From: Chara braunii | Taxonomy: Eukaryota; Plantae; Charophyceae | Length of the DNA: 64,000 bases | Direction of reading: 5' to 3' | Assembly: GCA_003427395.1 (NCBI GenBank) | Contig: BFEA01000016.1 | Location: forward strand, 969,712-1,033,711 | Part shown: positions 1 through 63,000 of the stretch, piece by piece | Layout: the number at the start of each line of letters is the position of its first letter | How positions within the stretch are numbered: position 1 is the stretch's first letter | Notes under the pieces: generated by a model | Database searches by the model: none | Told to the model about the DNA's origin: nothing | The model's input: the letters and a program-made list of their open reading frames with translations, nothing else | Position numbers and translations under genes: made by a program

Positions 1-600
1 TTGGCAGCGCTTTTCGTAGAAAAAATGCCTTCTCAAAATTTATACTAGCTCAAATATGAAAGCAAAAATAATATTTAACACTCGAAAGTCCAATTTTGTC
101 AAACTCCCTGAATTAACAAACGTTTTGGCTGCACTCCTTTTTGAAAAAGAGACTTTCCATATTTTTACTAAGTCAGATATGAACTCAAACATAAGACTTG
201 AGTTCTTTTTACTAAGTCAGATATGAACTCAAACATAAGACTTGAGCTCTACCAAAACAAAATTTAACTAACTCCTTAGATTTGTAGAAATTTCGGTAGC
301 GTTTACCGTAGAGAAAGTAACTTTCCACAATTTATACAAAGCTAAGTCCAGAATCAAAAAATAACTTTGACTTCTTAAAGTCCAATTTTGTCCAACCCCC
401 CGAATTAGTAAAATTTTGGGCAGCACTCCCTTTAGAAAAGTAAACTTTTCATATTTTTACTAAGCCATATACAAAACTTAGACAACTTGAACTTTGAAAA
501 GTCAAATTGTGACTAACTCCTTGGTTTTGTAAAAATTTTGACAACACTTCCCGTAGGGAAAGTAGCTGACCAAGATTTATACAAGACCAAGTATAAGGAA
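1..600. repeat. ~120-125 bp degenerate tandem array (5 units) in LTR
   Basis: Recurring (T)TTCGGCAGCGCTTCCCGTAG..AAAG...TTTATAC unit near 1, 125, 291, 416, 536; homologous arrays at 13535-14100, 19220-19760, 28420-28975, 61800-61940. Confidence 0.85.
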
Positions 601-713
601 AGATCCCAAAAAATGCGAGAATTAACATAAGGAAAAAATAATTAACTGAAAAAATACAGGAATTGAACTAACTCCTATGACTCTAGCACGTGGCGAGCAA
701 CTAAAACAAGTAC

Positions 714-1888
714 CTGCCAAACAGAAACTTAGAGTAAGTAGTGATCTCACTCTTTCATATGCAAGGCCAAACTACATTGGTAAGTACTCTCACCAGTCCC
801 CACGTCAAATCCTCATAGATTAGTTCATAAAACCCTCAGATGATTTATCCTTTATAACCAACTTACATATGACGTGGTGCTAGACCATTCAACTTAGAAA
901 CAATGTTTAGCATGCTTTAGGATATACACGAACAGATTGCAAACTACTTCTCTCTTCTTAGGACATATTACTAGACCGTTCAGCTTAGAAACAATGTCTA
1001 GTCGCCCTGAACTGTTTAATATCCAAAGTTTAATAATTTATGACTTTGTTCTCAAAATAAATGAAAATATGGGCAAGGGACTGAGCCATTGAACTTAGAA
1101 ATAATGCTCAGGTTGCCCAGATTACTTCCAACTATATTTTGTGGTTTTCCTTCTCTTCTTAGTGATATGGCTTAGCGCTGGACTATTCAACTTAAAAATC
1201 GTATTCAGCTGACAGTTCAAATGCAATTATAAATAAGGTATTTTCTGTTATAGTCAGTTTATACTTATGTACGTGGTTTTCAGGCTAAACCATTAAGCTT
1301 AGAAACAATGCTTAGCCTTACACCAGAGCTCCTCCCTCAGAAATAAAACAAGAGGCTGAACCATTCAGCTTAGAAATAATGTTCAACATATCCTCAAATC
1401 ATTCGAAGCATGAAGTTTGATTCTTCAGCCCAACCTCAGTCAGACCCCCCCCCAAAAAAATAAACAGACCAAGTCATTCACTTAGAAACAATTCTTAGTC
1501 TCAAAGATCAGCCAAGCGAACCCTTAGAAATAAATATAGCAATCAGGTCATTCAACTTAGAAACAATGTCTGGTCCTTCATAAAACAACCAAATAAACAT
1601 AGCCTTGGACCATTCAACTTAGAAACAATGCCCGGTCCTTGGTTAACCTAGTCAACTACATGCAAAAATGTCTTTCTCCCACCTTACCCCAGTTCATCCC
1701 TTAATCTGCTTTCAGTCAAAATAAAGAAGGAACTTAAGCTTCACTCTCACACGTTCTTTCTATTCAGTCTGATTGAGTCATGAAAAGAAAGCAAAAGTCA
1801 TAGGGGAACTCATGCATACAACAGTTAAACTAGAGGAAGATAGTCACACATGGGTATAAAAGGTTCATACACACAGAAGATGGTATAC
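714..1888 (-). other. Predicted intron in the LTR leader enclosing the hairpin array
   Basis: Minus-strand donor CAG|GTATAC at 1888 and acceptor TTTCTGTTTGGCAG| at 714; equivalent sites at 21109/19881 and 30261/29093, donor also at 63616. Confidence 0.5.
878..1636 (-). repeat. Hairpin array, loop type 1 (9 units)
   Basis: Core CATTCAACTTAGAAACAATG in units starting ~878, 970, 1081, 1177, 1282, 1355, 1466, 1542, 1605, each flanked by a different 5-9 bp inverted repeat. Confidence 0.9.
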
Positions 1889-2150
1889 CTGATAGTTCTC
1901 TGCCTCTAGAACTCCTCCTGAGTTCCGGCAGAACTCCCACAATCGGTGGGCAGACTCCCCACAGAGTCTTAATGCGGTCCTACGGGTTGCATCCCGTCTG
2001 CCGCCTTCCTCTCGTAACCACAGACTAGACTTAGAGTAAGAAGGGTAGAGGGAGAAACATTAAGACTCTCATATACAAGAAGGGTGTTCTCAGGCTCACG
2101 CGAGAGGGCCTTGATTCCTTGACTCACGTGAGGGTCCCGCAATGATGGTC
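1889..2150 (-). promoter_or_regulatory. Conserved block, probable core promoter / first exon of the LTR transcript
   Basis: Segment shared by all six LTR copies (also ~15385-15645, 21110-21372, 30262-30513, 51625-51885, 63617-63855); a pyrimidine patch on the minus strand is followed by a splice donor. Confidence 0.45.
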
Positions 2151-5100
2151 AAAGCGTAGCCAGAACTTGGTCAACTGAAGTCAAATCGTCAACCGTTGAC
2201 TCCCTGCCAATCCTTTCAATTGCAACAACTATCCCCCCCCCTTTTTGGAGAGTTTGATCACCACTCCTAATCGTAGTCCCGCCATCTCCGGCCAGACTTA
2301 TAACACATAGCCCAACGACAACAACTTGTAGCAAACCTGCATGCTCAACAAACCGTGCGCAGCTACATGACTCAAAGGTAAATCCCAACAATGAAATTCA
2401 TTAGTGCAACAAAACTCAATAATATATGGCAACGTTCAGCGTAAAACCCATGTGCAGTCATAGCAGGCACTCCATCCCTGCACTATAATGTATTACTACA
2501 GGCTCAGAGACACCATACGTATAACAATTGTGTTTGCACAACGATTTGTATGGCAACCCCCAAAAAACTCCGAGCTCAGCAAGGTGAGGCAAAAGTGCAG
2601 CGAGGTCAAAAATCTTCATTCAGAAATAAGAAGCACAACAAATGTTGCTCGAAGCTCACTGAGAGGGGTTAAGCGTAGTAGTTAACTTCACAGTGGCTAC
2701 GACAGTTCGTACTCCAAAACAACGGTACGCAATGTGCAGTGATACATAAGTCGTTCACCAACGCCTCAGCAAAACACCGAGATGTCGTAAGTCCGGCTCA
2801 GTGGACCGCAAATGAACTTCTCCACTGGAGGTCAATCCTAACGGCAAGGTGTGAACAGGCCCCTCAATCCAGCACAGCTTGCTGTATCCGCTCACTCAAT
2901 TGGTTGTAAACAATATCCGCCCGTTTCTTGCCCAGCAACGGCGGTTCATCCATGTAAGTTCAGTCGTCCTCTTGCTCGTGCTCACTCTGAGCCGTCAGTT
3001 TGACGCTCAGGGAGAGTCTCACATCTGCACTCACTGGCAGCCTTGTAGTTCGACACTGTAACTCGACCTGCGGTCTACCTTACACTGCCAACTCGCCAGG
3101 TAAGTTTTCTCCCCCTTTCTCATTTGCCCACCCGTTCTCCTACTGAACCTGTTCCACTGATGTATGACCGCTCCTATTGCCAACAAGCAACCAAGGACTC
3201 GGGACCGAACGGGCGATCCAGATGACTGGTATGAGCAAAGTGAATACAGACACCACGATGACGGGCAGTGCTCTGACGACTATCTATGCCACACTGCTAT
3301 CCTGCTGGTTTCAAACAACGTAACGAGCATCTCGACTAAAAGCAACTACGCGCTAGAGGAATAGAGAGAGACTTCCGTTCTTGATAAAATAAACAAATTC
3401 AAAATGAATCATTCACCAGAATATGGAAATATACACCACTACTCGTGCATAGGTGTGCGTGTGTGTGTGAGAGAGAGGGTATTCCACCATTTGGCTGCAC
3501 AACACGTCGGCCAACGGGTAAGTATCCAACCTCGTGACCGGCCTTAGGTTACTCTCATCGATAGAATGAGCAAAATCGAATGAATCTTCTGCTAGAGCAC
3601 GACGAAATACGCCACCACTCTAAAATTGTCTCCCCCGAGCACAACCCGTTATTTGCACACCTAAAAAACTAGCCACTAAGCTCTAATCCTAACATCACCA
3701 TTGAATCCGCCAGTCCTCAATCTCCCCAGGACGCACCTCCCCTCATCTGATTTAGTCAAGAGTCTGATGGGTTAATCCCCTACCATATCCGCTCCTTCAC
3801 GCACTCCGCGCACATTTTTTTTCCAGTATTTTTTTCTATACTAATCTTCACACCAATCTGACTCCGGATCCCGGTTCGCAAGCGCCGAAAACCCCCGATC
3901 CACTTGGCCAGTTTGGTCAAGGATCACACGCGTTGCTTACTTCTTACTGTGCCATGGCTCGTTCCTTCACCATCTCTTCTATCGACTGTTTCCGGCGCCA
4001 AATCATACTCGATTCATCTCTCTTGCTGTGTTCGTGCCCGATGTTTTCACCACCTCCGTTGACCTCGTCCCTGCTTCGTTCGACAACGCTTAACGCAGCG
4101 GCCTTCGGGCAGCTCAAGTATTTGAGGAAAACTTCCAAGGGACCTACTACTTGGATGATTCACAAAGGTTTTCCACCTCTACGCCCGGGCGAACGAACTA
4201 TTCGCACATGTCAGTTCCGTCGTAGCCCCTCCCTCCTCTCGCCCTACTCAGGTTGTTGCCGCCTTGAACCTCCAACAGACAGCCCCCACAGAGACAACTA
4301 GTCGCAGTGCGGCCTGCTACAAGGCTAGCGCGGGCCTTGGTGGGTGGGTGCGATGCAATTCTCGGTCGTGGTAACATGCGACCGAGGTGAAGTAAGGTCC
4401 CATGTGAGCAAGACACGCTGCGGCCTCCGCCCTGGTGCCCTCTGCCGCTACCCAGGCATAGTCCAACCCCAATAGGGCCCGGCGAGCATGCTCACACTCA
4501 AACCATCTCGCAACAGATCATGGTTGGCGGACAGTGCATCTGCGGCAATCCCCACCAGTCAAGTTTTTTCCGCTTCGTGGGCTAACCAGCCACGGGCTTG
4601 CACGCACGTCGGCTTCCTCGGCCCACACCCTAGGATGGTGGGACCAAGGACCCTCACCAGCATCCCGAAAGACTTAGGAACCCGTAGGTCAACGAAATGA
4701 AGAGCTCGTGCTCAAAACCCTCGACCATCACGACGACCTCCAAATCCAGCGTCACACCGGAGTCAAAGAACATCGGAGCAGAATAACAATAAATAATAAA
4801 AAATTTATTTAGAAATTTTTAATCGTCAGGAAGCGGCGGATGAAACAAAAAGGGACCCGCTATACCGCCCCGACTGCGCCGACGACAAAACCAAGGATGA
4901 TAGCCCCGTCAGACCCTCAACCCCTCGTTCTCTCTATGCCATTCTGATATCCCCGCGTCGTCACCGCTCGATCTCGATGCCTGAATCTCTTTGATGAAAA
5001 AGTCCGACGCTGTATCCAATAGTGCTAGGCCCAAGGCAAGGTCTCGCTTTGACGGACACCTAAGTAAACAGATATTGTGCGACGCTTAGATCTACCGAAG

Positions 5101-5850
5101 CATTCTCAAAATCACATGGTTGTCGATGTCGTCCTTCAAGTTCGCACAGATCACAGATAAACAACCAATCACGAGACGAAATCTTTTTAATCCTAGTTTA
5201 ATCATAAAATAAAAGTCTGGTCGGTGACCAACGCCGATTTTCACAATCATCAAAGGGAAAAAAAATCATGCGCGCCTTAAGTCTGCGCGTCCACACACTC
5301 TCTATCCTAGTCAAACATCCAGGCAGTGTGGTCAAGACACAGTTGTGAATCGTGCGGCGCACTCAAATCCTAAACCAAACTTATTTTCTGTCACTTGCAA
5401 AAACCAGGGCGGATACCCTTGTAAGGGTATTCGCGCCGACAGCTTACCGGACCATATTAAGCGGCGTCCCTGTCGCATCGCAGAATTGAAAACTATCAAC
5501 TCATCCATAATCCAAAATGTTGACGAGAAAAAAACCAATCCGATTAGCCGACAGACTCCGGTTCGAGGCCTCCATCAATCTATGCCAAACATAACTATAT
5601 GGTGTCAAGATTCCAACCTGGGTCTCCATTGTCTTGACACTAGGACGCCGGGATACTGACATATGTATTACAATATAAGTTTCAGTGACCCTCTCAACCG
5701 TCCTCTCCCCATTGTCATAGACAAACGCTGACTTCTCGTTAAGTGTCCCATTTTGTTTCTACCCTGCAAGCAGGGCCATAACTAAGGACGCGGGCCCTAA
5801 GTGAGGCCTTTGAAGGTATTCTTGCCTTCCTCTCAACAATTCGTACAATC

Positions 5851-5852
<2 letters not shown>

Positions 5853-5912
<60 letters not shown>
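5853..5912. repeat. (AT)n/(ATATAC)n microsatellite
   Basis: Direct reading. Confidence 0.95.
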
Positions 5913-5915
<3 letters not shown>

Positions 5916-7645: not shown

Positions 7646-8632
7646 TTAGGTCCTCTTCACACAAATCCTCTCTCTCCACAACCACAATTTAGAGGCAGTG
7701 CTTGATGTTTTATCGTGCCGCGAAGTCTCTTTCCTCGTTCCCCCAAGCATGGTCGGGTCGATATATTTCCCAGCTCTGTCAAAAACATTCCCTTCCATAT
7801 TAGTCTTTATTAGGCCACTTGCCTCATCTGCCCTTCGTTCATGACATAATTTTATTATGTGTCTCTCTTTGGCACAATGCCTGCAAGTGGTTTTCTTCCA
7901 ATCGACTTTTCCTCCTCGAAATTCATTGCCAGCGTCTAAATTCACCTGAGCTCGACTGTTTTTCTTTCTCTGGGCTTCGGCTAGATTAGGGCGCTCACGC
8001 CCTTTTTTCCAATTACCCCTCTCCTCATCTCTTCCTCCCTCTCGAGCACTAGACCACTTTCTTTGGATCCTCTTGCGGTGGAGAGGATCTCGTTCATTAC
8101 CTTCTATCATCTCCTCACCTCTGCCTGCCGGCTCACCCAATATCTCTCTTGGAGTCTTCCGCTTGCCTCTTCTGAGTTCCTCCAATTGCGCAATTCTCTC
8201 TCCTAATATCTTTGATTCTCTTTGTTCATCAGCTACCCGTTCTTGTACTGACGCATCTCCAACAACTAGCGCAATCTAAGGGATTCTGCTTGGCTGAATG
8301 AGATCATCTTCTTCTGGAAACCTTTTTCTCAGAAAGTTATCGAGCCCACTCCACATCCTTGACTTCAATACGAAAATGTCTACTTCCTCGCTGACGTTCT
8401 CACAAACGAATAACGGTAGCAGACTCGACATAGTTATCTTGTCCCACATCTTTGCGAGGCTAAAATCATAATAGGCGTGGAGAAAATCAGACAAATTCCT
8501 TCCTTGGAACAACAAAGCTCGGAGATTTGAGGTCATCGAGTCGTGCACCGACTCGCACAATAACACCTTCGTGAGGCAAGAACTCCTTCAAAGCAGGATC
8601 TTGGTGAAACCACTTTCTTCAAGTTGAGCCAT
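7646..8632 (-). pseudogene. gag: gag of E1, one frame with in-frame stops
   Basis: ATG at 8632, stops at 8590 and 8278, same frame through ORFs 8276-8566 and 7646-8185. CRHCAKERHIIKLC is a Cx2Cx4Hx4C knuckle. LLFQGRNLSDFL aligns with LYFNGRYVTGFV of the plus-strand gag. Confidence 0.85.
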
Positions 8633-8969
8633 GATGTCGAGGCTGGCCTGACAAGCATGACAAGCAATGGATCATCAAGCTGTAACGCAAGAAAGCTCTA
8701 AACAAATAAGGGTTAGTAAAACTGCTAATATTCAAATCGCACTAACCCTTTTCTCGCCCACATAACTAAACCTTAACTTTAGTTACCCTTACTCTAACCT
8801 TAAGGGTACTATAAACAATATACACCCCACATAGGTGGGGCTTTCAAAACCAGTTATAGATAGACAGTAGTAGTGGCTACAATAGTGATTGGTCCTCGTA
8901 CTCGCAGTGTAAAAAAAATCATAGACGAGTCTTAAGAAAGATACACTTGGCAGAATATGAGGACACACT

Positions 8970-11835: not shown

Positions 11836-11837
11836 CC

Positions 11838-14800
11838 TGTCGAGCGCATCGGTCCCATGCAGGGCGGGAACCTCCCGGTCTCGTCATGCAAGAGTTGGTC
11901 TAAACTCGCGATACACACGGAGCTTCCGCAAACCGCTCCGGCTGAGTGCGCCAACCATACCTCTCGTGAACCCCTACGACAGGATAGGGCCAACGCGAGG
12001 TACAACTTACCTCCACCTTACGGGAGTTGTCACCTCCTTTCGGTGGGCATATCCCCGCCGAACTATCTGTCCACAGTACGAAAGCTAATCAGTTGCAATC
12101 GCAGAGGTGGACCAGACGAGGGCGTTTCTCGTACGCTGTAGCGTAGGGGGTATGCGCGGCCCCACACCTCTATCGGATTCGCATGCGAACCTATGCACTG
12201 AGGATCTGAAGTCCCAAGCGTGGCTCGTTGTCAGTCGACTAGGACGCATCCCAGTCACCACGCATCACACCACACTTAGAACATAAAAAATAAACACACA
12301 CACACACACATACGAAACGACACAAAACAAAACAACACAACAACACTCCTACTTCTTTTTGTATCCAACCCATAACCTTCCGACGCGGAAATCGGATAGA
12401 CGACACGCGTGAGACTTAGTATAAAACCGCGCGAACACATGGTATTCCCACATCGACCACCAATGCATGCTTACTCAAGCGGTCGAAATCATGGCGTACT
12501 ATGTAGTACCCATAATCATTCGCTCCTCGATAATCTCGATGGTCGTGTTCGACACTCAAGTGTCCGTTGACACCCGCCATGAGGGGTTAATCTCTCGACG
12601 CTAAACAACTGCCCAGTGCGGTTGAGAACCACACCCTCTTCTGCACCCTGCGAAGAGTCGGTGGTACACAAGTTCACACATGTGGTGGCAATCATCTCTT
12701 ATCGCCCTGGAGACCAGCTCCATCATCCAGGGCCTTGAGATAACTCAAGCAGTTTGATTTTGGTGGCTTCCATTTACTACAACGTCCAACTATAAATATT
12801 CTAAAAAGTAAAGGGGTAAAAGGGGATCTCCCTTATCTCTTAACACATAATCTGTTTAACCCTTGCGCAAGGTCACAATAGGCCCCGCGAACACTCAAGG
12901 CATATGTATGTACATGTATATAAAGGGTTGTAAATATGTGACGATCACTCCTCATGATCACAGTGAGACTCCTCTCAGCCATATAGATATATGTGATCAC
13001 AGACAGTCAAATTCAAAGTCCGAACAACAAACATATATCGCTTTAACCATACAAGTCTCACTCTTTGTGCAACTCTCAAAATAAAATACTCAGTATCTTT
13101 GTTAAATGACAATTCAATAAAGTCCATGTGAAAAATCAGCAAAAAAAACAAATCACAGGGCTAAAGCCTTTAGGTTGAGTGGCAAGAGTGTATTGGAGTT
13201 GAGTCGTAAACTGACGAATCGACAACCGACCTGTCATCAGTGATAACAAAAGATGATCCTTGTAGGATCAAGCTGAATTTAACCAAAATCATGAATCAAA
13301 CAATCAAGAGGACCTGTAACATAAGACGGACCAATCCCCAAGCTAGATCTATAAGTCTAATAGAGAATAGTCTCCATATCATGATTTCACTCAAAATCGT
13401 CATAATTAACTAAGCCTAAATCTACCCCTAAACAAGTGTCCAAAGACATGTAGACCCTGACAAAATCTCCTTTATGCAGAGTGGATCGCCAGAATCGTCA
13501 CCTGTCAAAATATAATCTATCTCCTCTAAACTAAGAAAATTTCGGCAGCGCTTCCCGTAGGAAAAATGTTTTCTCAAAATTTATACTAGCTCAAATATGA
13601 AAACATAAATAATTTTTAACACTAGAAAGTCAAATGTTGTCTAACTCCCTGAATTACTAAACATTTTGGCAGCACTCTCTCATTAGAAAATGAGACTTCT
13701 CATATTTATTCTAAGTCAGATATGAACTCAAACATAAGACTTGAGTTCTATTAAGATAAAATTTAACTAACTCCTTAGATTTGTAGAAATTTCGGTAGCG
13801 CTCCCCATAGAGAAAGTAGCTTTCCAAAATTTATACAAAGCTAAGTTCAAAATCTAAAAATAATTTTGACTTTTCAAGGTCCAATTTTGTCTAACCCCCC
13901 GAATTAGCAAAACTTTGGGCAGCACTCCCCTTAAAAAATTAGACTTTCCATATTTTTACTAAGTCATATACAAAACTTAGACAAGTTGAACTTTAAAAAG
14001 TTAAATCGTGACTAACTCATTGGTTTTGTAAAAATTTCGACAGCGCTCCCCGTAGAGAAAGTAACTTACCAAGATTTATACAAGACCAAGTATAAGAAAA
14101 GATCCCTGAAAATGTTAGAATGAATATAAGTAGAAAAAACTTCGCTCAGAAAATGCAAGAATTGAACTAACTCTTACGACTCTAGCACGTAGCGAGCAAC
14201 TAAAGCAACTACCCGCCAAACAGAAACTTAGACTAAGTAGTGATTTCACTCAGCCATATACAAAGCCAGACCACATTGGTAAGTACTCTCACCAGTCCCT
14301 ACGTCAAATCCTCATAGATTAGTTCATGAAACCCTCAGATGATTTATCCTTTATACCCAACTTACATATTGCATGGTGCTAGACCATTCAACTTAGAAAC
14401 AATGTAGCATGCCTTAGGATATACACAAACAGATTCCACAACTACTTCTCTCTTCTTTGAGCATATAATTAGACCATTCAACTTAGAAACAATGTTTAGT
14501 CAGCCTGAACTGTTTAATATCAAAAGTTCAATAAAATCTGACTTTGTTTTCAAAAGAAATGAAAATATGGGTAGGAGACTGAGCCATTCAACTTAGAAAT
14601 ATTGCTCAGCTTGCCCAGATTACTTGCAATTATATTTTGTGGCTTTCCTTTTCTTCTCGGTGATATGACTTAGCGCTGGACCATTCAGCTTAAGAACAAT
14701 GTCCAACTGGCAGTTCACATGCAAATATAAATAAAATATTTTTTGTTATACTCAATTTATACTTATGTACGTGGTTTTCAGGCTAAACCATTAAGCTTAG

Positions 14801-17386
14801 AAACAATGCTTAACCTTACACTAAAGATCCTCCCTCAGAAATAAATAAGAGGCTGAACCATTCAACTTAGAAACAATGTTCAACCTATCATCGAATCATT
14901 CAAAGCATGAAGTTTGATTCTTCAACCCAACCTCAATCAGAAACCCCAAAAGAAATAGACAGACCAAACCATTCACGTAGAAACAATTCTTGGTCTCAAA
15001 GATCAGCCTAACGAACCTTTAAAAATAAATATAGCAACCAAGTCATTCAACTTAGAAACAATGTCTGGTCCGTCATAAAACAACCAAATAAACATAGCTC
15101 TTGCCATTCAGCTTAGAAACAATACCCAGTCCTTGGTTGACCCAGTCAACTACAAGCAAAACTGCTTTCCTCCCACCTTTCCCCAGTTCATCTCTTAATC
15201 TGTTTTCAGTCAAAGTAAAGAAGGAACTTAAGCTTTACTCTCACATATTCTTTCCATTCAGTCTGATTGAGTCATGAAAATAATGCAGAAGTCATAGGGG
15301 AACTCATGCATACAACAATCAAACTAGAGGGAGATAGTCACACATGGGTATACTGGGGTCATACAGACAGTAGATGGTATAACTGATAGTTCTCTGCATC
15401 CATGACTCCTCACGAGTTCCAGCAGAGCTCCCGCAATCGGTGGAAAGACTCCCCACAGAGTCTTGATGTGGTCCTACGGGTTGCATCCCACTTGCCGCCT
15501 TCCTCTCGTAACCACAGACTAGACTTAGAGTAAGAAGGGTAGAGGGAGAAACATTAAGACTCTCAGATACAAGAAGGGTGCTTTCAGGCTCGCGAGAGAG
15601 GACCTTGATTCCTTGACTCAGCCGAGAGCCCCGTAATGATGACCAAAGCGTAGCCAGAACTCGGTCAACTGAAGTCAAATTGTCAACCGTTGACTCCCTG
15701 CCAATCCTTTCAATTGCAGTAACGATCCCCCCTTCCTTTTTGGAGAGTTTGATCACCACACCTAGTCGTAGTCCCGCCACCTCCAACCAGACTTCTGCCA
15801 CGTAGCCCAATGGCAACAACTTGTAGCAAACCTTCATGCTCAACAAACCGTGCGCGACTACATTGCTCAAATGTAAATCCCAGCAGCGAAATCCATTAGC
15901 GCAAGAAAACTCAATAATATATGCCAACGTGCAGCGCAAAACCCAGGTGCAGTTATAGCAGGCACTCCATTGGTGCACTATAATGTACTACTACAGGCTC
16001 AGAAACACTATACATATAGCAATTGTGTATGCACTGCGTGCACAACGATTTGTATGGCAACCCCAGAAAAAGCTCCGAGCTCAGCAAGGTGAGGCAAAAG
16101 TGCAACGAGTTCAAAAATCTTGATTCAGAAATAAGAAGCACAACATCTGTTGCTCGAAGCTCACTAGGAGGGGTTAATAGTAGTTGTTAACTTCACAGTG
16201 ACCACGACAGTTCGGACTCCAAAACAGCGGGTACGCAATGTGCAATGATACATAGTCCGTTCACCAACGCCTCAGCAAAACACCGAGATGTCATAAGTCC
16301 GGCTCCTTGGACCGCAGGTGAACTTCTCCACTGGAGGCCAATCCTAACGGGAAGGTGTGAACCCCTCAATCCAGCACAACATGCTGTATCCGCTCACTCA
16401 ATTGACTGTAAACAATATTCGCCTGATTCTTACCCAGCAACGGTGGCTCATGCATGTAAGTCCAATCCTCCCTCTTGCTCGTTCTCACTTTGAGCCGTCA
16501 GTTTGACGCTTAGGGAGAGTCTCACATCTGCACTCGCCGGCAGCCTTGTAGTTCGACACCGTAACTCGACCTTCGGTCTACATCACACTGCTAGCTCGCC
16601 AGGTAAGTTTTCTCCCACTTTTTCATTCGCCCTCCCGTTCTCCCACTGAACCCGTTCCACTGGTGTATGACCGCTCCTATTACCAACAACCAACCGAGGA
16701 ATCAGGACTGAATGGGCGATCCAGATGAATGGTATGAGCAAAGCAAATACAACCACCACGATGAAGGGCGGCGCTCGGACGACTATCTCTGCCACACCAC
16801 TATCCTGTTGGCTTCAAACAAAGCAACGAGCGTCGCGACTAAAAGCAACTACACGCGAGAGGAATAGAGAGAGACTTCCTTTCTCGATAGAATAAACAAA
16901 TTCGAAATGAATCATCCCCCAGAATATGGAATTCAAGTTATACACCACTACTCGTGCGTAGGTGTGCGTAGGTGTGCGTGTGTGTGTGTGTGAGAGAGAG
17001 AGAGGGTATTCCACCATTAGGTTGCACAACGCGTCTGCCAACGGGTAAGTATCCAACCTCGTGTCCGGCCTTAGGTTACTCTTATCGATAGAATGAGCAA
17101 AATCGAATGAATCTTCTGCTAGAGCACGACAAAATACTCCACCACTCTGAAACTGTCTCCCCGCTCAAAGCCCGTTATTCGCACACCTAAAAAACTAGCC
17201 ACTAAGCTCTAATCCTAGCATCACCATTGAATCCACCAGTCCTCAATCCCCCCAGGACACACCTCCCCTCATCCGATTCTGTCAAGAGTTGGATGGGCTA
17301 ATCTCCTACCATATCCGCTCCTTCACACACTCCACGCATACTTCTTTTTCACCGACTCTTTCACCGACTCAGGATTCCGGTTCGCA
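11838..17386 (-). repeat. E1 5' LTR (~5.5 kb)
   Basis: TG at 11838 adjacent to the PBS; CA at 17385-17386 where homology to 1-3880 stops; right boundary less certain than left. Confidence 0.7.
14377..15130 (-). repeat. Hairpin array, loop type 1 (9 units)
   Basis: Unit-for-unit homologous to 878-1636. Confidence 0.9.
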
Positions 17387-18465: not shown

Positions 18466-20059
18466 TTAACGTCCAACCATAAAATGTTATTAAAAAAATC
18501 CCTCTTTTCTCTCGCTATAAGTCTGTCTGATCAAAACGCGCACGATCTTAAATCGATCGAGCGAATATACCACATACACATACCGGAGTTACAAAACATG
18601 AGGCGATCACTCTCACAATTACGATGTGACTCAAGATATACTTATGATCGCAGACAAAGTCAAATTTGAACATTCATTCACAAAACATACTTATAATCAT
18701 ATGAAGAATTCACCATTATCACACCACGCGCTACATAGGGTCAACTTCAACCGACCTCTCTGCACGCATACCCATTCCCTTATCCGCATAAGCCCCAACC
18801 TTTGTCAAACCTTCCAAAATAAAACACTCAGTACTTTTTAAATGGTCATTTAACAGAAATCCGGATAAAACCCCAAAGAAACAAATCAACCCACATGGGC
18901 TAAGGCCTTTAGATTGAGAAGCGAGAGTGAGTTAGAGTTGAGTCGGAAACCGACTTATTATCCAAAGATAACAAAAAATGATATTCGTAGGATCAACTTG
19001 AAGCTAGTCAAACCTCGAATCGATCTAATAAGAGTGACCTGCAACACAGCGCAGACCAGTGCCCAAACTATGCTTGAGTGATTACGAGATAATCCTACCT
19101 TCCTACCTCACCTCTGATACTTATTTGAAAATGCCAGAAATTTCAACGGTATCGCCTCTATGTGAGGGCAGGTTGCCAAACTCTCAAGGTTCTAAAATAT
19201 TTGAAGGCCTCTATATTTTATAAAATTTCGGCAGTGTTTTCCGTAGGGAAAGTACCTTTGAAAAATTTATGTACGACTGAATATAAAATCTGAAAGCGAT
19301 CTTCTAACTTTAGAAGTCAAATTTTGTCCAACTCCTTTATTTAGTAAAAAATTGGGCAGCTTCTCCTCTAGACACGTGGATCTATACTAAGTCAAATATA
19401 AACTCAAGATAAAAATTGAATTATGTCAGGGAAAAATTGAACGAACTCTTTTAGATTTGTAGAAATTTCAGCAACGCTTCCAGTAGGAAAAGTGTCTTTC
19501 CAAAATTTATACAAAGCTAAATATGAAATTTAAAAGTAACTCTGACTTCAAAAAGCTAATTTTTGAATTAGTAAAAATTTGGGCAACATCTCCTTTAGAG
19601 AAGTAGGCTTCCCATATTTTTACTAAGTCATGTACGAACTCAAACAAAAGTTGTACTTTGTAAAAAACAAATATTTGACTAACTCTTTGGATTTGCAAAA
19701 ATTTGGGCAACAATTCCCTTAGCGAACATGCTTCTCCAAGATTTATAAAAAGCCAAGAATAAGAAAACTTATCTAAAAAAATGTTGAAATTGAACTAAGT
19801 AAAATAAACTTAGTTAAAAAATGCAAGAATTGAACTAACTCCGATAATTCCAGCACATGGCGAGCATCTAAAGTAACTACCTATCAAAGTTAAGACTCAG
19901 AGCAAGTAGAGCCCATACTCAACCTTATGCAATTTCATATGACAATGGGTACTAAGTACTCTCACCAAAGAAGTCCCAAGTTGTTTTTCACAAAAGAAAT
20001 TTATTTACCCTCAGTTAAGTGAACCCCAATACCCCAACTTACATATGACATAAGAGAGA

Positions 20060-20852
20060 CTACAACATTCTACTTAGAAACAATATCAAGTTTTTGTCTT
20101 TATTTATAAACAAAACACGTGGCACGATAAAATTTATCTCTTCATTGGGCATATGGCTAAGCCATTCAACTTACAAACCCTGCTTAATCTCCCTGAACCA
20201 TTTAATATCCAAGTTATATATAGCTTTATGCATTTAGTGATCAAAGGTGAACGTATGACTAAACCATTCAACTTAGAAACAAACGTTCAGTCTGCCTGAA
20301 TCGGACCTTTTGATTATACTTTTAATTAAGTACTCTCTTCTTTTAGTGATAGGCTATAGTCAGACCATTCAACTTAGAAACTTTGTCTGACTTGCTGGTT
20401 CATATAAAATATATAACATACAATATAGGAAGAACTATTTTCATATTTTTCTATTTGCGTGCGTGACCTCTCAAACTAAGTCATTCAACTTAGAAACAAT
20501 ACTTAGTCCTAACCTCAATTCCTTTAGAAAGAAACACATAAAGAGTTGAGTCATTCAACTTAGAAACAAATACTTAACCCGTTCCTTCAAAATTCAAAGA
20601 AAAGCAGGGGTCCTATACCATTAAACTTAAAAACAAATGTCAGGGCCTGTTCAGAAACCTCCCCAAAAAGCAGGTAGACCAAGTCATTCAACTTAGAAAC
20701 AATCTTTGGTCGAGAAAAACAATCCATTCATGTCCTCAAATCAAAGCCACAACGACCAGACTATTTAACTTAGAGGAATTGTCTAACCTATCAGAAGACA
20801 GAACAAAGAAACATAGCAGTTCGACCATTCAACTTAAGAACAATGCCTAACC
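20060..20852 (-). repeat. Hairpin array, loop type 1 (10 units)
   Basis: Same loop with changed but paired stems, e.g. GTCAGAC..GTCTGAC, ACTAAGT..ACTTAGT, GACCAAG..TTTGGTC. Confidence 0.9.
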
Positions 20853-21590
20853 GTTTGTACAATCCACAATCTAAACCACCTTCCCCCCACCTTCCCTTCA
20901 ATTCATCCCTCTTCCACTCCGAGTTTCAAACAAAATAAGAAAGTAAAACTGAATTTTTGTGCACGTGTTCTTTTACTTTACTTTGAATTCAGTTCAGAAA
21001 GTCAAACAGTAAAACTTGGCAGGGACGCATGCATTCATATTGAGACAATCATAAAAGGATGTAAACATAAGGGCTTTATGTGAGTTTATCAAAAGTAAGG
21101 GTGATGTACCTCTCATTTCTCTGCCTATATCTCCTTTTGAGTTTTGACAGAGCTCCCTCAATCAATGGGTAGACCTTCTAAAAGGTTTTGTTGCGGTCTT
21201 GTGGGTTGCAATCCCACTTGCCGCCTTCCTTTCGTAACCGCATATTAGACATAGAGTAAGAAGGGCAGAAAGGAGGAGTCTCAGACACTCGAGATACAAG
21301 AAGGGGACAACTCAACTCGCGCGAGAGAGCCTTGAAGCCTTCAGTCACCTGAGGGCCCCGCAATGGTGGTCAAAACGCTTAGAAGCCGACAAAAACACGA
21401 CTGACTCACAGCAACAGTCTCCTTTGAAAATACAATAGTTGCACAAGATCAGGAGGAAGCGTCGACACCTTGAGACCACAATTGTTGTTGTCAAGACTAG
21501 TGGTGCTTAGTAAAGGCAAAATGTCGCAATTGTCCATTGTTACCTCGACAGGCTAAGCTTGAAGTAGCAATATTTGTCTTTGTAACAAAC

Positions 21591-27741: not shown

Positions 27742-29253
27742 AATGTGATGATCACTTCTCACAATCACAGTGTGATTCTTCTCATCCATACATATGTATG
27801 AGATCACAAACAGTCAAATCCAGAATCCGAACCATAAAACATACTTGCAATCACATCAAGGATTCAACCAAAAGTCCACGCACAACATGGGGTCAACTTC
27901 AACCAATCTCTGCACTCATACCCCTTGCTATAGCCATGCAAGCCCCAACCTTTATCCAACCTTCCATAATTAAATACTGAGTACCTTTGTTAAATGACCA
28001 TTCAATAAAACCCTGGGTGAATAAAACAAATCAAAACCACCGTGCCAAATCCTTTAGGTTGAGTGGCGAGAGTGAAATGAAGTTGAGTCATAAACCGACG
28101 AATCGGCAACCGGCTTGTTATCAGTGATAACGGAAGATGATCCTCGTGGGATCAAGCTGAATCTAGCTCAAATCCCGAATCAAGCGATCAAGAGGACCTG
28201 AAACACAAGACAAACCAATCCCCAGACTAAATCTATAAGTCTATGGAGAATAATTTTCATATCACGATCTCACTCAAACATCGTTCTTAATTAACTAAGT
28301 CAAAATCTATCCCTAAGCAGATACCTAAAGAAAAGGTAGATCCTGGTCGGATCTCCTCTATACAGAGTAAATCTCCAGAATCGCCACCTGTCAAAATATA
28401 ACCTATCTCCTTGAAACTAGGAAAATTTTGGCAGCACTTCCTGTACGAAAAGTGCCTTTTCAGAATTAATACTAGCTTGAATATAAAACTAAAATGTTCC
28501 ATGACTCTGGAAAGTTCAATTTTGTCTACCTCTCTGAATTAATAAAAAATTAGACAGCACTCCTTTCAGAAACGGAAACTTCCCAGATTTATACTAAGTC
28601 GGATATGAAACTCAAAAGCAGAACTTGAGTTCAACTAAGATAAAATTTAACTAGCCTCTAGATATGTAAAATTTGGTCAGCACTCCTTTTAGAAAATGAG
28701 ACTTTCCATATTCATACGAAGCTAAGTTCAGAACCTTAAATAACTTTGATTTCTCAAGGTCCAATTTTGTTTAACTCCTTGATTTAAGAAACATTTGAGC
28801 AGCACTCCCTTTAGAAAATGTGACTTTCCATATTTTTACTAAGCCATTTATAAAAGTTAGATAAGCTGAACTTTGAAGAGACAAAATCTAACTAACTACT
28901 TGGTTTTGTAGAATTTTCGGCAACGCTTCCCGTAGAGAAAGTAACTTACCAATATTTATACAAGACCAAGTATAACAAATGATCCTAGAAACTGCAGGAA
29001 TTGACCTTCGTAAAATAAACCTAGCTAAGAAAATACGAAAATTGAACGAACTTCTATTGCTCTAGCACATGACAAGCAACTAAAGCAACTACCTATCAAC
29101 TGAAACTCAGACTAAGTAATAGTCTCACTCAACCACATGCAAGACCAAATGACAAAGGGTAAGTACTCTCACCATTCCCAAGTCGAAGTCCTAATAGATA
29201 GTTCATTAACTTTCAGATGATTTAACCCTTATACCAAAATTACATATGACATG

Positions 29254-30011
29254 ATGCTAGACCATTCAACTTAGAAACAATGTCTAGCATGCCTTTAGAA
29301 TATACACGAACAGGTTGCACAACTACTTTTCTCTTCTTTGGACATATGACTAGACCATTTAACTTAGAAACAATGTCTAGTCGCCCTGAACTGTTTAATA
29401 ACCAAAGTTCAATAATTTCTGACTTTGTTTTCAAAAGGAATGAAAATATGGGAGGGGACTGAGCCATTAAGCTTAGAAACAATGCTCAACTTGCCCAAAC
29501 TACTTCCAATTATACTTCGTAATTTACCTTCTCTTCTTAATGATATGGCTTAGCGCTGGACCATTAAGCTTAGAAACAATGTCCAACTGCCAGTTCTCAT
29601 GCAAGTATAAATAAAGTACTTCCTGTTATACTCAGTTTATACTTATGTGCGTGGTTTTCAGGCTAAACCATTAAGCTTAGAAACAATGCTTAGCCTTAGA
29701 CCAGAAATCCTCCCTTAAAAATAAAACAAAAGGTTGAACCATTCAACTTAGAAACAATATTAATTCTATCCTCAAACCATTCAAAGCATGAAGTTGGATT
29801 TTTCCACCCAACTTCAGCCAGAAACCCCAAAAGAAATAGACAGACCAAGCCATTCACTTAGAAATAATGCTTGGTCCCGAAAATCAGCCAGACAAACCCT
29901 CAAAAATAAACATAGCAACCAGACTATTCAACTTAGAAACAATGCGTAGTTCTTCAAAAAACAGTCAAATAAACATAGCCCTGGGCCATTCATCTTAGAA
30001 ACAATGCCCCG
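29254..30011 (-). repeat. Hairpin array, loop type 1 (9 units)
   Basis: e.g. ATGCTAGAC-CATTCAACTTAGAAACAAT-GTCTAGCAT and GACTAGAC..GTCTAGTC. Confidence 0.9.
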
Positions 30012-30513
30012 TCCTTGGTTGACCCGGTCGAACGCATACAAACCGCCTTCCTCCCACATTCCCTCACTTCATCCCTAAGTCTGCTTTCAGTTAAAACAAA
30101 GAAAAACTTAAGCTTTCCACACATATTCCTTCCATTTAGTCCAATTAACTCCTAAAAAGAAAGCAAGAATCATAGCGGAACACATACATACAACAGTCAA
30201 AGCTAGAGGAAGATAGTCAAACATGGGTATAGTGGGTTCACACAGTCAGAAGGTGGTATACCTGTCAGTTCCCTGCCTCTAAAACCTCGCCTCGGTTCCG
30301 ACATAGCTCCCGCAATCGGTGGGTTGATTCCCTACAGAGTCTTGCTACGGTCCTACGGGTCACAACCCCGCCTGCCGCCTTCCTCTCAGAACAAGACTAG
30401 ACTTAGAGTAAGAAGGACAAAAAAAGAAGTTTCAAACGCTCGAGATACAAGAGAGGGACGAACTCAACTCCCAGGAGACGGCCTCAAAATCTTCGTGCAC
30501 CTGAGGGTCCCGC

Positions 30514-50159: not shown

Positions 50160-51990
50160 TGTCGAGCACATCGGTCCCGCACGGGGACCCTCCCAGCCGC
50201 GTAACGCAGAACTTGGCACGACTTGTCGTGGAGAGCGTTTGCCGCTCTGGCCGAGTGTGCCAGCCGTACCTCTCGCGAACCCCTATGACAGGACAGGGTC
50301 ACGCGAGACCGCTTACCTCCACCTGCGGGAGCTGTCACCATCCCTTAGGTGGGCGTATCCCCGCCGAGCTACTGAACTATATGCGAAGGCTCGTCGTATG
50401 CAATTTTAGAGGTGGCCCAACCAAGGGCATTTCTCGTTTGTTGAAGCATAGGGGGTACGTGCGGTCAACGCCCAAAATCAAACCCGTACGCGAATCGACG
50501 CACTGGGGGTTGAGGTCCTAAACGCGACTCGACGTCGGTCGATTAGGACACATCCTACCTACCACGCGTTACACCATAACACTCACACACATGGAAGGAC
50601 ACAAAACAAATAACACAACCACACAACAACACAACAATACAACAACTCTCATAGTCCCTTCAGTATCCGACCCATAACCTTCTGAAGCGAGAGTCAAATA
50701 GGCATCGCGGACTGAACTTAGTGTAAAAAGTTGGGCGGACTCATGGCCTTCTCATATTGACCAGCCATGTGTGAATATGCGAGCATTCGTACTGATGGGG
50801 TACTATGTAGTACTCGTAAGCGCGCGACCCTTGATAATCTCGAGGGTCATGTTCGACACTCAAGTGTCGGCTGACAAGCGCTTTGAGGGGTTAATCTCTC
50901 GACGCTAGACAACAGCCCTAACCCTAGGGTACGTTCAGCCTGCCCAGTTACCTTCATTTTATTCTTTATCTATTTCATTTTCTTCCTTAGTTATACCTGA
51001 CTTAGTGGCTTTCCCTACCGAGGGTGCCTGGTCTGTCAGGACTCAGAAGTATAAGTTCAGTAACATATGTATCAGATTTTATACTCTGGTTAACCAGTCA
51101 ATTCATGGCTTATGGCTAAGTCGCCCTAACCCTAGGGTACACTTAGTCTTATGCCTTTGTTCCCTCGGAAGAAACATACACCTCAACTCATTCAAATAAA
51201 CATCAGGATTCTGAGCCTTCCCTACCCAGATTGCCCGTCCTCCTGTCCAGAAACTCTCAAAAGAAACAACGACTGATCCATCCTACCCGGGTAGGACCAG
51301 CCATAAAAGCCATCAACGCAGCCCAACAAACATCAATAAACATAGCGTTGGGCCCACATCCACCCGGAGGAGCCCAACCTTGGGTTGACCCGGTCAAACA
51401 CATGCAAAACACCTTTCTCCCACCTTCCCCCCATTCCTTTATCTGGATTCACTCAAGGATTATCTGAACTCTCATATATATTCGTTTATTTAACCTTTCA
51501 CAAAGCATGTTCTGACATACGTAACAAAAATAAAGAATAATAACCTGTCATAGTTATATTCAGATACTTAAAAGGAATAATGCAGTTAGGGGAAGGGAGC
51601 ATACGCGTAAGACGAGAGTTATATCTGAAGTTCCCTGCCTCCAGAACCTCGCCTGGGCTCCGGCAGAGTTCCCGCAATCGGTGGGTGGACCTCGCACAAG
51701 GTCTTGTTGCGGTCCTACGGGTTGCAATCCCGCCTGCCGCCTTCCTCTCGTAACCTCAGACTAGACTTGGAGTAAGAAGAATAGAAGGAGATAAGTCAGA
51801 CGCTCGAGATACAAGGGAGGGACAAACTCAACTCGCAGGAGAGGGCCTTGAAATCTTAATACGCCAGGGGACCCCGCAATGATAGCCAATTACGCGGTGA
51901 AGATGATCGGATCACGGTCTGAACGCGAAGTACCATCCCCCAGACGATCCTCCAAGTTGCAACAATAACCCCCTCTGCCGATCCTGACCA
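50160..51990 (-). repeat. E2 3' LTR with ~2.1 kb internal deletion (true right end may be further right)
   Basis: 50160-50911 matches 60090-60828; 50912-51990 matches ~62915-63940. Confidence 0.8.
50912..51378 (-). repeat. Hairpin array, loop type 2, remainder after deletion
   Basis: e.g. GGCTAAGT-CGCCCTAACCCTAGGGTAC-ACTTAGTC at 51114. Confidence 0.8.
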
Positions 51991-60067: not shown

Positions 60068-60087
60068 GATCCCCGGCAACGGCGCCA
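60068..60087 (-). promoter_or_regulatory. Primer-binding site complementary to the 3' end of plant tRNA-Asp(GUC)
   Basis: Minus strand TGGCGCCGTTGCCGGGGATC, 2 nt after the LTR end ..CGACA; same PBS type as Athila elements. Confidence 0.9.
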
Positions 60088-60089
60088 CC

Positions 60090-63000
60090 TGTCGAGCGCA
60101 TCGGTCCCGCACGGGGACCCTCCCGAGCGCGTCATGCAGGATTTGGCAGAACTTGTCGCGCAGAGCGTTTGCCACTCCGGCCGAGTGTGGCAGTTGTACC
60201 TCTCGCGAGCCCCTACGACAGGACAAGGTCACGCGAGGCACCGCTTACCTCCATCTGCGGGAGTTGTCACCATCCCTTAGGTGGGCGTATCCCCGCCGAG
60301 CTACTGAACCACATGCGAAGGCTCGTCGTATGCAATTGCAGAGGTGGCCCAGGCGAGAACGTTTCTCGTTCGCTGTAGCATAGGGGGTACGCGCGGTCAA
60401 CGCCCAAAATCGAACCGATACGCGAATTGACGCACTGGGGGGTTGAGGTCCCAAACGCGACTCGGCGTCGGTCGACTAGGACGCATCCTACATACCGCGT
60501 GTTACACCATAACACTCACACGCATGGAAGGACACAAAACAAATAACACAACAATACAACAACACACCTACTCCCTTCAGTATTCGACCCATAACCTTCT
60601 GAAGCGAGAGTCAGATAGGCATCGCGGACTGAACGTAGTGTAAAAAGTTGGGCGGACGCATAGCCTTCTCATATTGACCAGCCATGCGTGAATATGCGAG
60701 CATTCGCACTGATGGGGTACTATGTGGTACTCGTAATCGCGCGACCCTTGATAATCTCGAGGGTCATGTTCGACACTCAAGTGTCGGCTGACAAGCACTT
60801 TGAGGGGTTAATCTCTCGACGCTAGACAACCGCTGCGGCGGTTGGTCACCACACCCTCTTCTGCACCCTGTGGAGAGTGGGTGGTACACAGGTTCCAACC
60901 CGTGATGGCAATCGTCTCTTATGGCCCTGGAGACCAGCTCCATCATCTGGGGTCTGGAGAGAAATCAAGGGGTTTGACTTTGACGGCTGCCACGGACTAT
61001 AACGTCCAACTATAAAATTCTAAAAGCAAAAAGGATGAAAGGGGAATCTCCCTTTTCCCTCGAAGTATAATCTTTTTAACCCTTGCACACGGTCACAATA
61101 GGCCTTGCGAACACCCAACGCGTATGTATGTACATATATATATAGAAGGTTATGAATATGTGACGATCACTTCTCACAATCACAGTGAAATTCCTCTCAG
61201 CCTTATATACTTAAATGATTGTAGGCAATCAAATCCAAAGTCTGAATCACCAAACATACCTGCAATCACATCAAAGATTCAACCAAAAATCCATGCACTA
61301 CACGGGATCAACTTCAACCATTCTTTGCGCTCACACCCCTCGCTTTAGCCATACAAGCCTCACTCTTTGTGCAACTCTCAAAATAAAATACTCAACATCT
61401 TTATTAAATGACCATTCAATCAAAGTCCGGGTAAAAACACAACAAAACAAATCAAACTACATGGCCAAATCCTTTAGGTTGAGTGACAAGAGTGGATTAA
61501 AGTTGAGCCGAAAACTGACCTGTTATCAAAAGATAACAGAATAGCGATCCTTTGAAGGATCAGACTGAACGAATCGAACCTTCAAGTGAAATACAAAAAC
61601 CTGTATTACAGTACAGGCCAAAGAGAATCACTACTATGTTCATGTCAAAAGGAGAGTACTTCCCACTTCGTAACCTAGCTCCTCTACTAATCTCACTGTC
61701 AGCTCCCCTTATCAGTACCAAGTCACTGAGCATCTCTCCTACTCAGGGTGGATTTGCCAAGTTTCGCCTAACTAAAAATATTATAACTCCTCAAATTCAA
61801 CGAAATTTCGGCAGCGCTTTCCGTAGGAAAAGTGCCTTTCCAGAATTCCACGAGTCCAAAAATAACTGACTCTTTCAGATTTGTAGAAATTTCGGCAGCG
61901 CTTCCCGTAGGAACAGGAGGCTGCCAAGATTTATATAAAGCCGAAAACAGAAAGACAAAGCAAAGCTATACTTGGGACTAGCTTCTGGCACTTGCCTGAT
62001 AGTTAGGATTGAAGATAGTTTACACGATCCCCTTTCAGAAGATGGTATCGTAAGCTATCGTCAACTCTAACTTCAAGTAAGACCAGTCTTACCTTTATCC
62101 CAAACTCTCCCTCCCATCATCCATCTCATCTACCTATGGCTCCAGCACTTGACGAGCATCTAAGCAACTAACGTATCGAAAAAACGCCCCAAAGTGAGAG
62201 CGCACAAGCATGCATAAACAAACACCTCTCACAATCCCACATCAGTTTGGTCCAAGTAGTTCGTTACATCGCTCAGTTATTTTCCGTTTTAAGTCCTTCT
62301 TTCCTATGGCATACGATCAGACTCACCCTAATTAATGGGTATGCTTGACCTGCCTAAATAACAGATAGGGTACACACATCTGGACTGCCCTAACCCTAGG
62401 GTATGCGCAGCATAACACGAACTGTATACGTAATGCATATGACCAGACCGCCCTAACCCTAGGGTACGTCTGACTTCTGCCTAACTAACGACATGAAGCA
62501 TAGGACTGGGCTGCCCTTACCCTAGGGTGTGCCCAGTTTGCCTTAAACAAGGTTACATATGGCATAACATTAGACCATCCCTACCCAGGGGTAGACCTAA
62601 CTTGCCTGAACATAAGTACAAACGACAAAAAGTTGGACCACCTTAACCCTTGGGTACGTCCAACTTACACCACACTAACGACAAAAGCATATCACTAGGC
62701 CGCCCTAACCCTAGGGTACGCCTAGTCAGCCATACAACAGTTAATATGACACAAATACTTACACAAACTTTATGTTTTTCCTTCTCTTGTTAGGCAGCCG
62801 ATCGGACCTTTCCAACTAATAGAACTTTCGATCCGCCCTCATGTTTAGAAGGGAAAATAAAAACAGGTTTATACTAACTCTCTGCTCCTTGATGTTATCA
62901 TGAGCATACAACTAAACCGCCCTAACCCTAGGGTAGGTTCAACGTGCCCAGTTACCTTCATTTTATTCTTCATCTATTTCCTTTTCTTCCTTACTTTTAC

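What the first reader, a model, noticed from the sequence alone, without database searches (positions are those of the whole stretch)
714..1888. The hairpin array lies inside a predicted intron of the LTR leader
Seen: a minus-strand AG|GTA donor right after the conserved LTR block (1888, 21109, 30261, 63616) and a pyrimidine-rich YAG| acceptor just past the array (714, 19881, 29093). Single substitutions spoil one or both sites in the other copies. Inference: spliced mRNA would lose the array and unspliced genomic RNA would keep it. This is the logic retroviruses use to mark genomes for export and packaging. Alternatively the excised intron is the precursor of the unit RNAs.
Basis: inference. 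Interest (0 to 1): 0.7.

Follow-up and report, generated by a model that had tools for sequence, protein, structure and literature searches.

The report
Likely intron inside a giant LTR
In a stonewort alga (Chara), a jumping gene's 5.5-kb end repeat has a transcribed first block that ends in a conserved GT, so the row of hairpins behind it likely lies in an intron, but where that intron ends is not established and any role of the hairpins in packaging is untested.

Summary
The listed GT and AG sites are at the stated coordinates. The element is a pol-less Ty3/gypsy-type retrotransposon of Chara with an LTR of at least 5.5 kb.

The donor (1888) is well supported. Similarity between subfamilies falls from 77% to 43% three bases after it. 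GT stands in 5 of 7 copies; both exceptions have an intact sister LTR. Sense poly(A) RNA depth drops from 32 and 71 to 0.1 and 1.5 across it. One public gene model appears to end an exon there.

The acceptor (714) is not supported. It is present in 3 of 5 copies, shows no conservation step, RNA does not rise after it, and no junction was listed in four runs. A better candidate, CAG|GT in 4 of 4 copies, lies about 0.9 kb further on (28198 in copy D) and would still enclose the array; its RNA support is weak.

Most laid reads come from other subfamilies, so the negative is not decisive. No spliced read was seen directly. All 7 copies keep the sequence after the donor. Packaging or small-RNA roles are untested.

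The parts
1889..2152 (-). Conserved LTR block, copy A (3' LTR); transcribed in relatives, likely first exon / start of R
   Evidence: Alignment of six copies; sense poly(A) reads on the homologous blocks of B and D
1883..1891 (-). Predicted 5' splice donor CAG|GTA; intron would start at 1888
875..1645 (-). Hairpin array of copy A, about 9 units: 8-bp outer stem, asymmetric inner loop, short inner stem, 6-base loop
714..716 (-).
   Evidence: 3 of 5 copies; no conservation step; no junction or depth rise
701..703 (-). AG 13 bases further on, aligned in 5 of 5 copies, at the start of a 30-base conserved island
1..3880 (-). LTR copy A (runs off the window start), 86.9% identical to copy B over 3864 columns
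11838..17385 (-). LTR copy B (5' LTR, at least 5.5 kb; true 5' end not fixed); donor changed at 15382, claimed acceptor changed at 14213, second donor deleted near 13020
13314..13316 (-). Best-ranked acceptor candidate CAG|GT, copy B; its equivalent in copy A lies outside the window
   Evidence: 4 of 4 copies, top context score; weak RNA step
19039..21109 (-). Alternative predicted intron in copy C (2071 bases), holding the array and the roughly 250-bp repeats
28198..30261 (-).
61601..63616 (-). Alternative predicted intron in copy F (2016 bases), with a hairpin array of another loop sequence (8 units found at about 62380-63150)
27839..27844 (-). Possible second donor GTATGT (also 18690 and 61259; 3 of 3 copies that keep the region)
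   Evidence: prediction only
60070..60087 (-). Primer-binding-site-like 18-mer after the LTR end of copy F (60090); degenerate in B at 11818-11835; tRNA-Asp identity recalled, not tested
   Evidence: no tRNA gene in the window
7646..8620 (-). Broken gag-like gene with CX2CX4HX4C knuckle; no pol found in the element
8680..8725 (-). Acceptor-like sites (8698, 8680) with branch-like TACTAAC and a pyrimidine run, about 160 bases before a candidate gag ATG near 8536
   Evidence: single copy, prediction only
50160..51960 (-). LTR copy E (3' LTR of the F-E element); donor changed at 51624; about 2.1-kb deletion at a 6-base microhomology near 50912, not at a splice site

Best explanation
The conserved LTR block is transcribed in the sense direction and likely acts as a first exon whose GT at 1888 is a working splice donor, so the hairpin array likely lies in an intron inside the LTR that is predicted to end further downstream than 714, and only unspliced RNA would be copied into new elements. 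The best single candidate for the intron's end is the CAG|GT about 2.07 kb from the donor (13314, 19039, 28198, 61601); further or direct splicing to an acceptor just before gag is predicted. Splicing would turn a 7.1-kb leader with 168 upstream ATGs into a translatable gag mRNA. Shown: sites, conservation step, sense RNA on the block and its drop, retention of post-donor sequence in all copies. Inferred: splicing itself, the acceptor, the start site, and any sorting role of the hairpins (about 0.25 on its own).
For: Change point of identity in 8 cross-subfamily pairs at +3 after the donor, 77% before and 43% after (the five rows used were those with intact GT). GT in 5 of 7 copies including metagenome locus L001; the two losses (B, E) have intact sister LTRs. 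Sense depth on copy D: 32 and 71 in the bin holding the donor, 0.13 and 1.46 in the next bin (X1, X3); relative to the X2 background 0.87 on the block and 0.037 in the array. Loose-end groups at 30259 (8 reads X1, 11 reads X3) keep GTA and then diverge, so other subfamilies keep the GT too; another group (10 reads, X3, 30265) goes on without GT. Gene model CBR_g36417 (P0073) matches the block up to the donor codon and then continues in unrelated gag-like sequence. The downstream CAG|GT ranks first among all YAG columns listed for the aligned LTR part. 168 ATGs lie between block and gag in copy B. No precise loss of the post-donor sequence in 7 of 7 copies.
Against: No junction read or contig joins the donor to any acceptor or 26 (15 of 20 joints shown, all 11). 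The two largest displayed groups passing the donor in copy D read through it unspliced. The donor matches the U1 consensus at only about 6 of 9 places and did not pass the 6.0 mean filter. Most laid reads are under 90% alike (111 of 136 in X1, 218 of 246 in X3), so part of the depth drop can come from divergence alone. Sense depth after the alternative acceptor (0.051 of background) is barely above the array (0.037) and about 17-fold below the block. The point tests for a step there used rows picked after viewing (p 3e-4, 7e-4, 0.11). The gene model is automatic and chimeric. Sense-strand preference of the hairpins is seen in L001 only; A-D show none and F the opposite.
Confidence: 0.5

Rival explanations
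1. The first reader's exact intron (1888 to 714; 30261 to 29093) is the main splice and removes just the array.
For: CAG|GT or TAG|GT context in 3 of 5 copies, with B explained by a change against its sister A; joint-best context score among the 3-of-5 columns; one mixed loose-end group (26 reads, agreement 0.53, X3) resembles, by eye, the bases just after this site in copy F; expressed reads look like the L001/L004 subfamily, whose downstream part is only 67-74% alike to C and D and could be missed at the 80% floor.
Against: No joint at 29092/30262 in four runs; sense depth after the site 0.026 of background against 0.037 in the array; X2 loose ends near the site continue in unspliced upstream sequence (56 reads); no conservation step; 132 ATGs would still precede gag.
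Confidence: 0.15
2. The donor works mostly as in MaLR/MT LTRs: the block is a promoter-plus-exon unit spliced to whatever lies downstream of each insertion, and the array's position behind it is incidental.
For: Block RNA exceeds every downstream part of the element, gag included, by 10-fold or more in X1 and X3; loose ends at the donor are mixed (agreement 0.53-0.71); the one gene model found is a chimera; precedent in PMC13408016 passages.
Against: A conserved downstream acceptor and a possible second donor in diverged subfamilies point to use inside the element; low downstream depth may reflect divergence.
Confidence: 0.2
3. There is no splicing: the block is a conserved core promoter and R region, the GT is part of that motif, and RNA falls off because subfamilies diverge or transcripts end there.
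For: No junction seen; read-through groups at the donor; moderate donor strength; motif counts at chance level.
Against: Conservation ends exactly after G|GTA; no poly(A)-like loose ends among the 6 rows shown per run and no pile of molecule ends; sense enrichment of the block over the array is about 24-fold after scaling to background; the 7.1-kb leader with 168 ATGs needs splicing or an internal promoter.
Confidence: 0.12
4. The excised intron is a precursor from which the hairpin units are cut as small RNAs.
For: Repeated stem-loops with compensating stems and a kept loop.
Against: Stems are about 11-15 bp with an inner loop, shorter than the roughly 21-bp duplex that Dicer-like enzymes need (established knowledge); no Rfam family at gathering score in the window. 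No small-RNA library was laid.
Confidence: 0.05

Closest known systems
Simple retroviruses and Cer1 of C. elegans (spliced mRNA versus unspliced genomic RNA)
   Same: Unspliced RNA must be kept for export and copying while a spliced form serves translation (PMC10309623 passages).
   Different: Here the predicted intron lies inside the LTR, upstream of the primer site, and would be needed to make gag mRNA itself; in those systems gag comes from unspliced RNA.
Ogre, EVADE, BARE1 (plant LTR elements with introns)
   Same: Plant LTR retrotransposons with functional introns; BARE copies only unspliced RNA (PMC12786077 passages; PMC3735527 abstract and first part of Discussion).
   Different: BARE1's intron is in gag and Ogre's lies between ORFs; none of the passages read places an intron in the LTR or around a hairpin array.
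MaLR / MTA LTRs of mouse
   Same: Start site and splice donor both inside the LTR (PMC13408016 passages citing Franke 2017).
   Different: Described as splicing to host sequence; the passages read mention no LTR-internal acceptor or hairpin array.
RTE of IAP and MTE of MusD (structured RNA export elements)
   Same: Structured cis-elements that export full-length retrotransposon RNA; a possible model for the array.
   Different: Described as single elements that act through NXF1, which the same review says plants do not use; here 8-10 repeated short hairpins with no function shown.
Non-chromovirus OTA (Athila/Tat/Ogre) elements
   Same: Large non-coding regions (PMC6317226 passages); the primer-site-like 18-mer resembles the Athila tRNA-Asp site as recalled.
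   Different: No pol to place it by RT phylogeny; membership not shown.

Membership tests
Ty3/gypsy LTR retrotransposon (non-autonomous) | Two long direct terminal repeats flanking an internal region | tested here: met
   A/B 86.9% over 3864 columns; E/F 89-91%
Ty3/gypsy LTR retrotransposon (non-autonomous) | LTR ending in CA followed by a TGG primer-binding site at the 5' LTR only | tested here: met
   Common end ...CGACA in B, D, E, F; TGG 18-mer after F, degenerate after B, other DNA after D and E. The priming tRNA was not identified.
Ty3/gypsy LTR retrotransposon (non-autonomous) | gag with CCHC knuckle, relatives with PR-RT-RH-INT order | tested here: met
   55 relatives; 8 of 9 scanned carry protease, RT, RNase H or integrase downstream, RT before integrase where both were seen (2 proteins). 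No Pfam hit on the window ORF itself; Atlas gag hits under 0.9 are a lead only.
Ty3/gypsy LTR retrotransposon (non-autonomous) | TG start, polypurine tract and target-site duplication | tested here: inconclusive
   5' ends are cut by other insertions or the window edge
Athila clade (OTA) | RT-RH-INT phylogeny | not testable with these tools
   The element has no pol
U2-type spliceosomal intron 1888-714 | GT donor conserved beyond neighbouring sequence | tested here: met
U2-type spliceosomal intron 1888-714 | AG acceptor at 714 conserved, with a step in conservation or RNA depth | tested here: not met
   3 of 5 copies; no step
U2-type spliceosomal intron 1888-714 | Junction reads | tested here: inconclusive
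   None listed in four runs, but reads come mostly from diverged subfamilies and only 6-13% of each raw run was read
Retroviral-type packaging/export signal | Enrichment of element-bearing RNA in particles; loss on deletion | not testable with these tools
   No particle or mutant data
Known RNA family / miRNA cluster | Rfam match at gathering score | tested here: not met
   0 matches in 64 kb

The most novel reading that the evidence does not exclude
A Chara retrotransposon family carries an intron inside its LTR that holds 8-10 repeated protein-binding hairpins; splicing makes the gag mRNA, retention marks the genome for export or packaging, and each subfamily's loop sequence acts as a barcode read by its helper Gag.
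Probability: 0.15. Interest if true: 0.8.

Novelty: new variant of a known kind. Interest (0 to 1): 0.5.

Why it matters
A 2025 review (PMC12786077, passages read) says plant LTR retrotransposons generally lack introns, that direct studies of their RNA export have not been done, and that export motifs are unclear. An intron inside the LTR, holding a modular hairpin array whose loop differs by subfamily, would give a compact and testable candidate for how such elements separate mRNA from genome. It would also show this in a charophyte alga. If the donor mainly splices into flanking DNA, the family would be a large source of promoter-plus-exon units in Chara. A five-phrase search for an intron within an LTR returned two gene-vector papers only; two searches on Chara elements and one on LTR hairpin arrays listed nothing on this family. 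The Chara genome paper was not held and may bear on this.

Tried and rejected
No whole genome was held, so family-wide GT/AG counts rest on 6 window copies plus L001.

Run search: no RNA holder listed; same-species runs were laid instead.

Collection scans with block motifs: 0 in viral contigs, 0 in prokaryote genomes, 6 loci in metagenomes, of which 2 (L001, L004) are true relatives and 4 are chance matches that were dropped. L001 ends before the acceptor region and L004 before the donor.

Pfam on 98 stop-to-stop frames of the element copies: no hit at a curated cut-off. A near-length protein search with the knuckle ORF found nothing.

First idea that the LTR was only 2 kb and ended near 13500: rejected when the shared end and primer-site-like motif were found 1.7 kb further on.

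Copy E as a retrocopy of spliced RNA: rejected; its deletion starts inside the array at a microhomology.

Contig joints in X4 such as 14241-15388: marked 'between: not known' and not at GT-AG ends; not counted as splicing.

G-U versus A-C test for RNA-level selection: 34 versus 24, p 0.24; fold asymmetry significant only in L001.

Earlier findings: three look-ups, nothing listed. No structure or complex prediction was run.

Full report
What the element is. Self-comparison shows six related copies on the minus strand, here A (1-3880), B (11838-17385), C (about 17385-21380), D (23945-30513, with insertions), E (50160-52000) and F (60090-63940). B, D, E and F share one 3' end. F is followed by a TGG 18-mer and B by a degenerate form of it, while D and E are followed by other DNA. 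So B and F are 5' LTRs, B-A and F-E are elements, and the LTR is at least 5.5 kb. The tRNA-Asp identity of the 18-mer is recalled, not tested; the window has no tRNA gene. Between B and A lies a broken gag-like gene, 68-71% identical over the knuckle region to three Chara braunii proteins. Of 55 relatives, 9 were scanned and 8 carry protease, RT, RNase H or integrase downstream. No pol was found in the element. A neighbouring element's RT is 86% identical to a C. braunii protein, so the host is Chara.

The observation. All listed sites are at the stated positions. As bare motifs they occur at chance frequency. The claimed acceptors are only moderately pyrimidine-rich and also read AG|GTA. The array is real: 28 matches to the unit motif against 0.49 expected. 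In 34 units from A-D, 178 of 272 outer-stem positions are Watson-Crick and 34 G-U, against 31-95 Watson-Crick in slid controls. F and L001 carry hairpins of the same shape with other inner stems, and in F another loop. Strand preference is unsettled: G-U versus A-C 34 to 24, p 0.24; only the 9 L001 units fold clearly better on the sense strand, and the 8 F units go the other way.

The donor. In 8 cross-subfamily pairs among A, C, D, F and L001, the best change point of identity is 3 bases after the donor, 77% before and 43% after. These five rows were chosen for having GT, so the invariance of GT among them is partly by selection. Over all seven copies GT stands in 5; B and E lack it, and each has a sister LTR that keeps it, which points to decay after insertion. 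The donor is of moderate strength, about 6 of 9 matches to the recalled U1 consensus. An automatic C. braunii gene model, CBR_g36417, matches the block up to the codon that ends at the donor and then continues in other gag-like sequence. It comes from another locus but is a prediction.

RNA. Three oligo-dT raw runs and one contig run of the same species label were laid at 80% likeness on copy B with its internal region and on copy D; 6-13% of each raw run was read. On D, X1 and X3 show 32 and 71 sense depth in the bin holding the donor, under 1 antisense, and 0.13 and 1.46 in the next bin. X2 covers the element on both strands, more on the antisense side; I used its antisense depth as a rough measure of how many copies align. 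Scaled this way, the block is 0.87, the array 0.037, the stretch after the claimed acceptor 0.026, and the stretch after the alternative acceptor 0.051. No joint links the donor to any acceptor (all 11 joints shown; 15 of 20). Among loose ends shown (6 rows per run), 8 reads in X1 and 11 in X3 keep GTA and then diverge, which means unspliced RNA from other subfamilies. Ten X3 reads go on without GT to sequence I could not place. A mixed group of 26 reads resembles by eye the bases after the claimed acceptor in F (agreement 0.53); this is a hint only.

The acceptor. Around 714 there is no conservation step; the AG stands in 3 of 5 copies, and an AG 13 bases on stands in 5 of 5. Ranking YAG columns over the aligned LTR part puts CAG|GT at 13314, 19039, 28198 and 61601 first, 4 of 4 copies, with more conserved sequence after it. 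That intron would be 2.0-2.1 kb and would hold the array and the roughly 250-bp repeats. For copy A it ends outside the window. Read counts at displayed positions suggest a step there (17 of 120 against 0 of 85 in B; 20 of 182 against 0 of 88 in D; a nearer pair 3 of 78 against 0 of 88, p 0.11), but the rows were picked after viewing and the two lays may share reads. A possible second donor lies about 345 bases later in C, D and F, and acceptor-like sites lie at 8698 and 8680 before gag. Splicing to those would also remove the primer site, which would keep spliced RNA from being copied without any help from the array.

Mechanism. From the block start to the candidate gag ATG in B there are 7108 bases and 168 ATGs; 132 remain after the claimed acceptor and 118 after the alternative one. 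Gag therefore needs further splicing or an internal promoter (inference from scanning translation). If transcription starts in the block, the array lies in R or U5 and each new LTR copies it from the genomic RNA. All 7 copies keep the sequence after the donor, and E's deletion is at a microhomology inside the array. So unspliced RNA was the template. Whether the hairpins cause that choice is untested.

Comparison. Spliced mRNA beside unspliced genomic RNA is known from retroviruses and Cer1 (PMC10309623, passages) and from BARE1, whose spliced RNA is not copied (PMC3735527, abstract and first of two parts of the Discussion). Plant LTR elements generally lack introns, Ogre and EVADE excepted (PMC12786077, passages). 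A donor inside the LTR is known from mouse MaLR elements (PMC13408016, passages). PMC6317226 and PMC3601003 were seen as passages; the latter has no occurrence of 'splice'. Nine searches listed no description of an LTR-internal intron with a hairpin array or of this Chara family; I saw those listings and abstract starts only. The Chara genome paper was not held.

Verdict. Donor probably functional (about 0.7); array inside an intron about 0.6; exact acceptor at 714 about 0.15-0.2; packaging or export role about 0.25. A new variant of a known kind, worth a genome-wide split-read check.

Noticed in passing
window 30514-48152 (+): Ty3/gypsy element with gag, protease, RT, RNase H and integrase matches and 1.8-kb LTRs at 93.7%, inserted into the conserved block of copy D; it holds an AT-rich stretch at about 36300-38000.
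   Followed up: partly
window 26887-27745: Organelle-like DNA inside LTR copy D, with Pfam hits to NADH dehydrogenase chain 3 and type II intron maturase.
   Followed up: no
window 24375-25600 (-): LINE-like fragment with an A-rich tail inserted in LTR copy D; judged by eye, no Pfam hit.
   Followed up: no
window 13536-14083 and equivalents in A, C, D: Tandem repeats of about 250 bp inside the LTR, downstream of the hairpin array.
   Followed up: no
window 62380-63150 and L001 110-850: Hairpin units keep their shape between subfamilies while the inner stem changes in compensating fashion and the loop differs (TAAGTT type versus TAGGGT type).
   Followed up: partly
window 56000-60090 versus 4870-11840: The F-E element matches the B-A internal region on both sides of gag but lacks gag itself, so it is non-coding throughout as far as tested.
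   Followed up: partly
window 17385: Copy C's LTR stops at the point where copy B's upstream region begins, which suggests the B-A element inserted into or recombined with C.
   Followed up: partly
window 16491-16525: A 35-base stretch draws about 31,000 stranded reads in X2; it looks like a short match to ribosomal RNA (identity recalled) and is not expression of the element.
   Followed up: partly
protein P0073 (CBR_g36417), residues 249-302: A public gene model includes the non-coding LTR block as a coding exon inside a chimeric protein; such models are probably annotation artefacts.
   Followed up: yes
protein P0038: A 1434-residue relative with 26 stretches matching the knuckle region; unexplained.
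   Followed up: no
window 49318-49731: Tandem repeat of 98 bp, 4.2 copies, unrelated to the array.
   Followed up: no
window 27944-28219, 13050-13300: A well conserved 340-350-base stretch of the LTR between the best acceptor candidate and a possible second donor, with 7-8 ATGs.
   Followed up: partly
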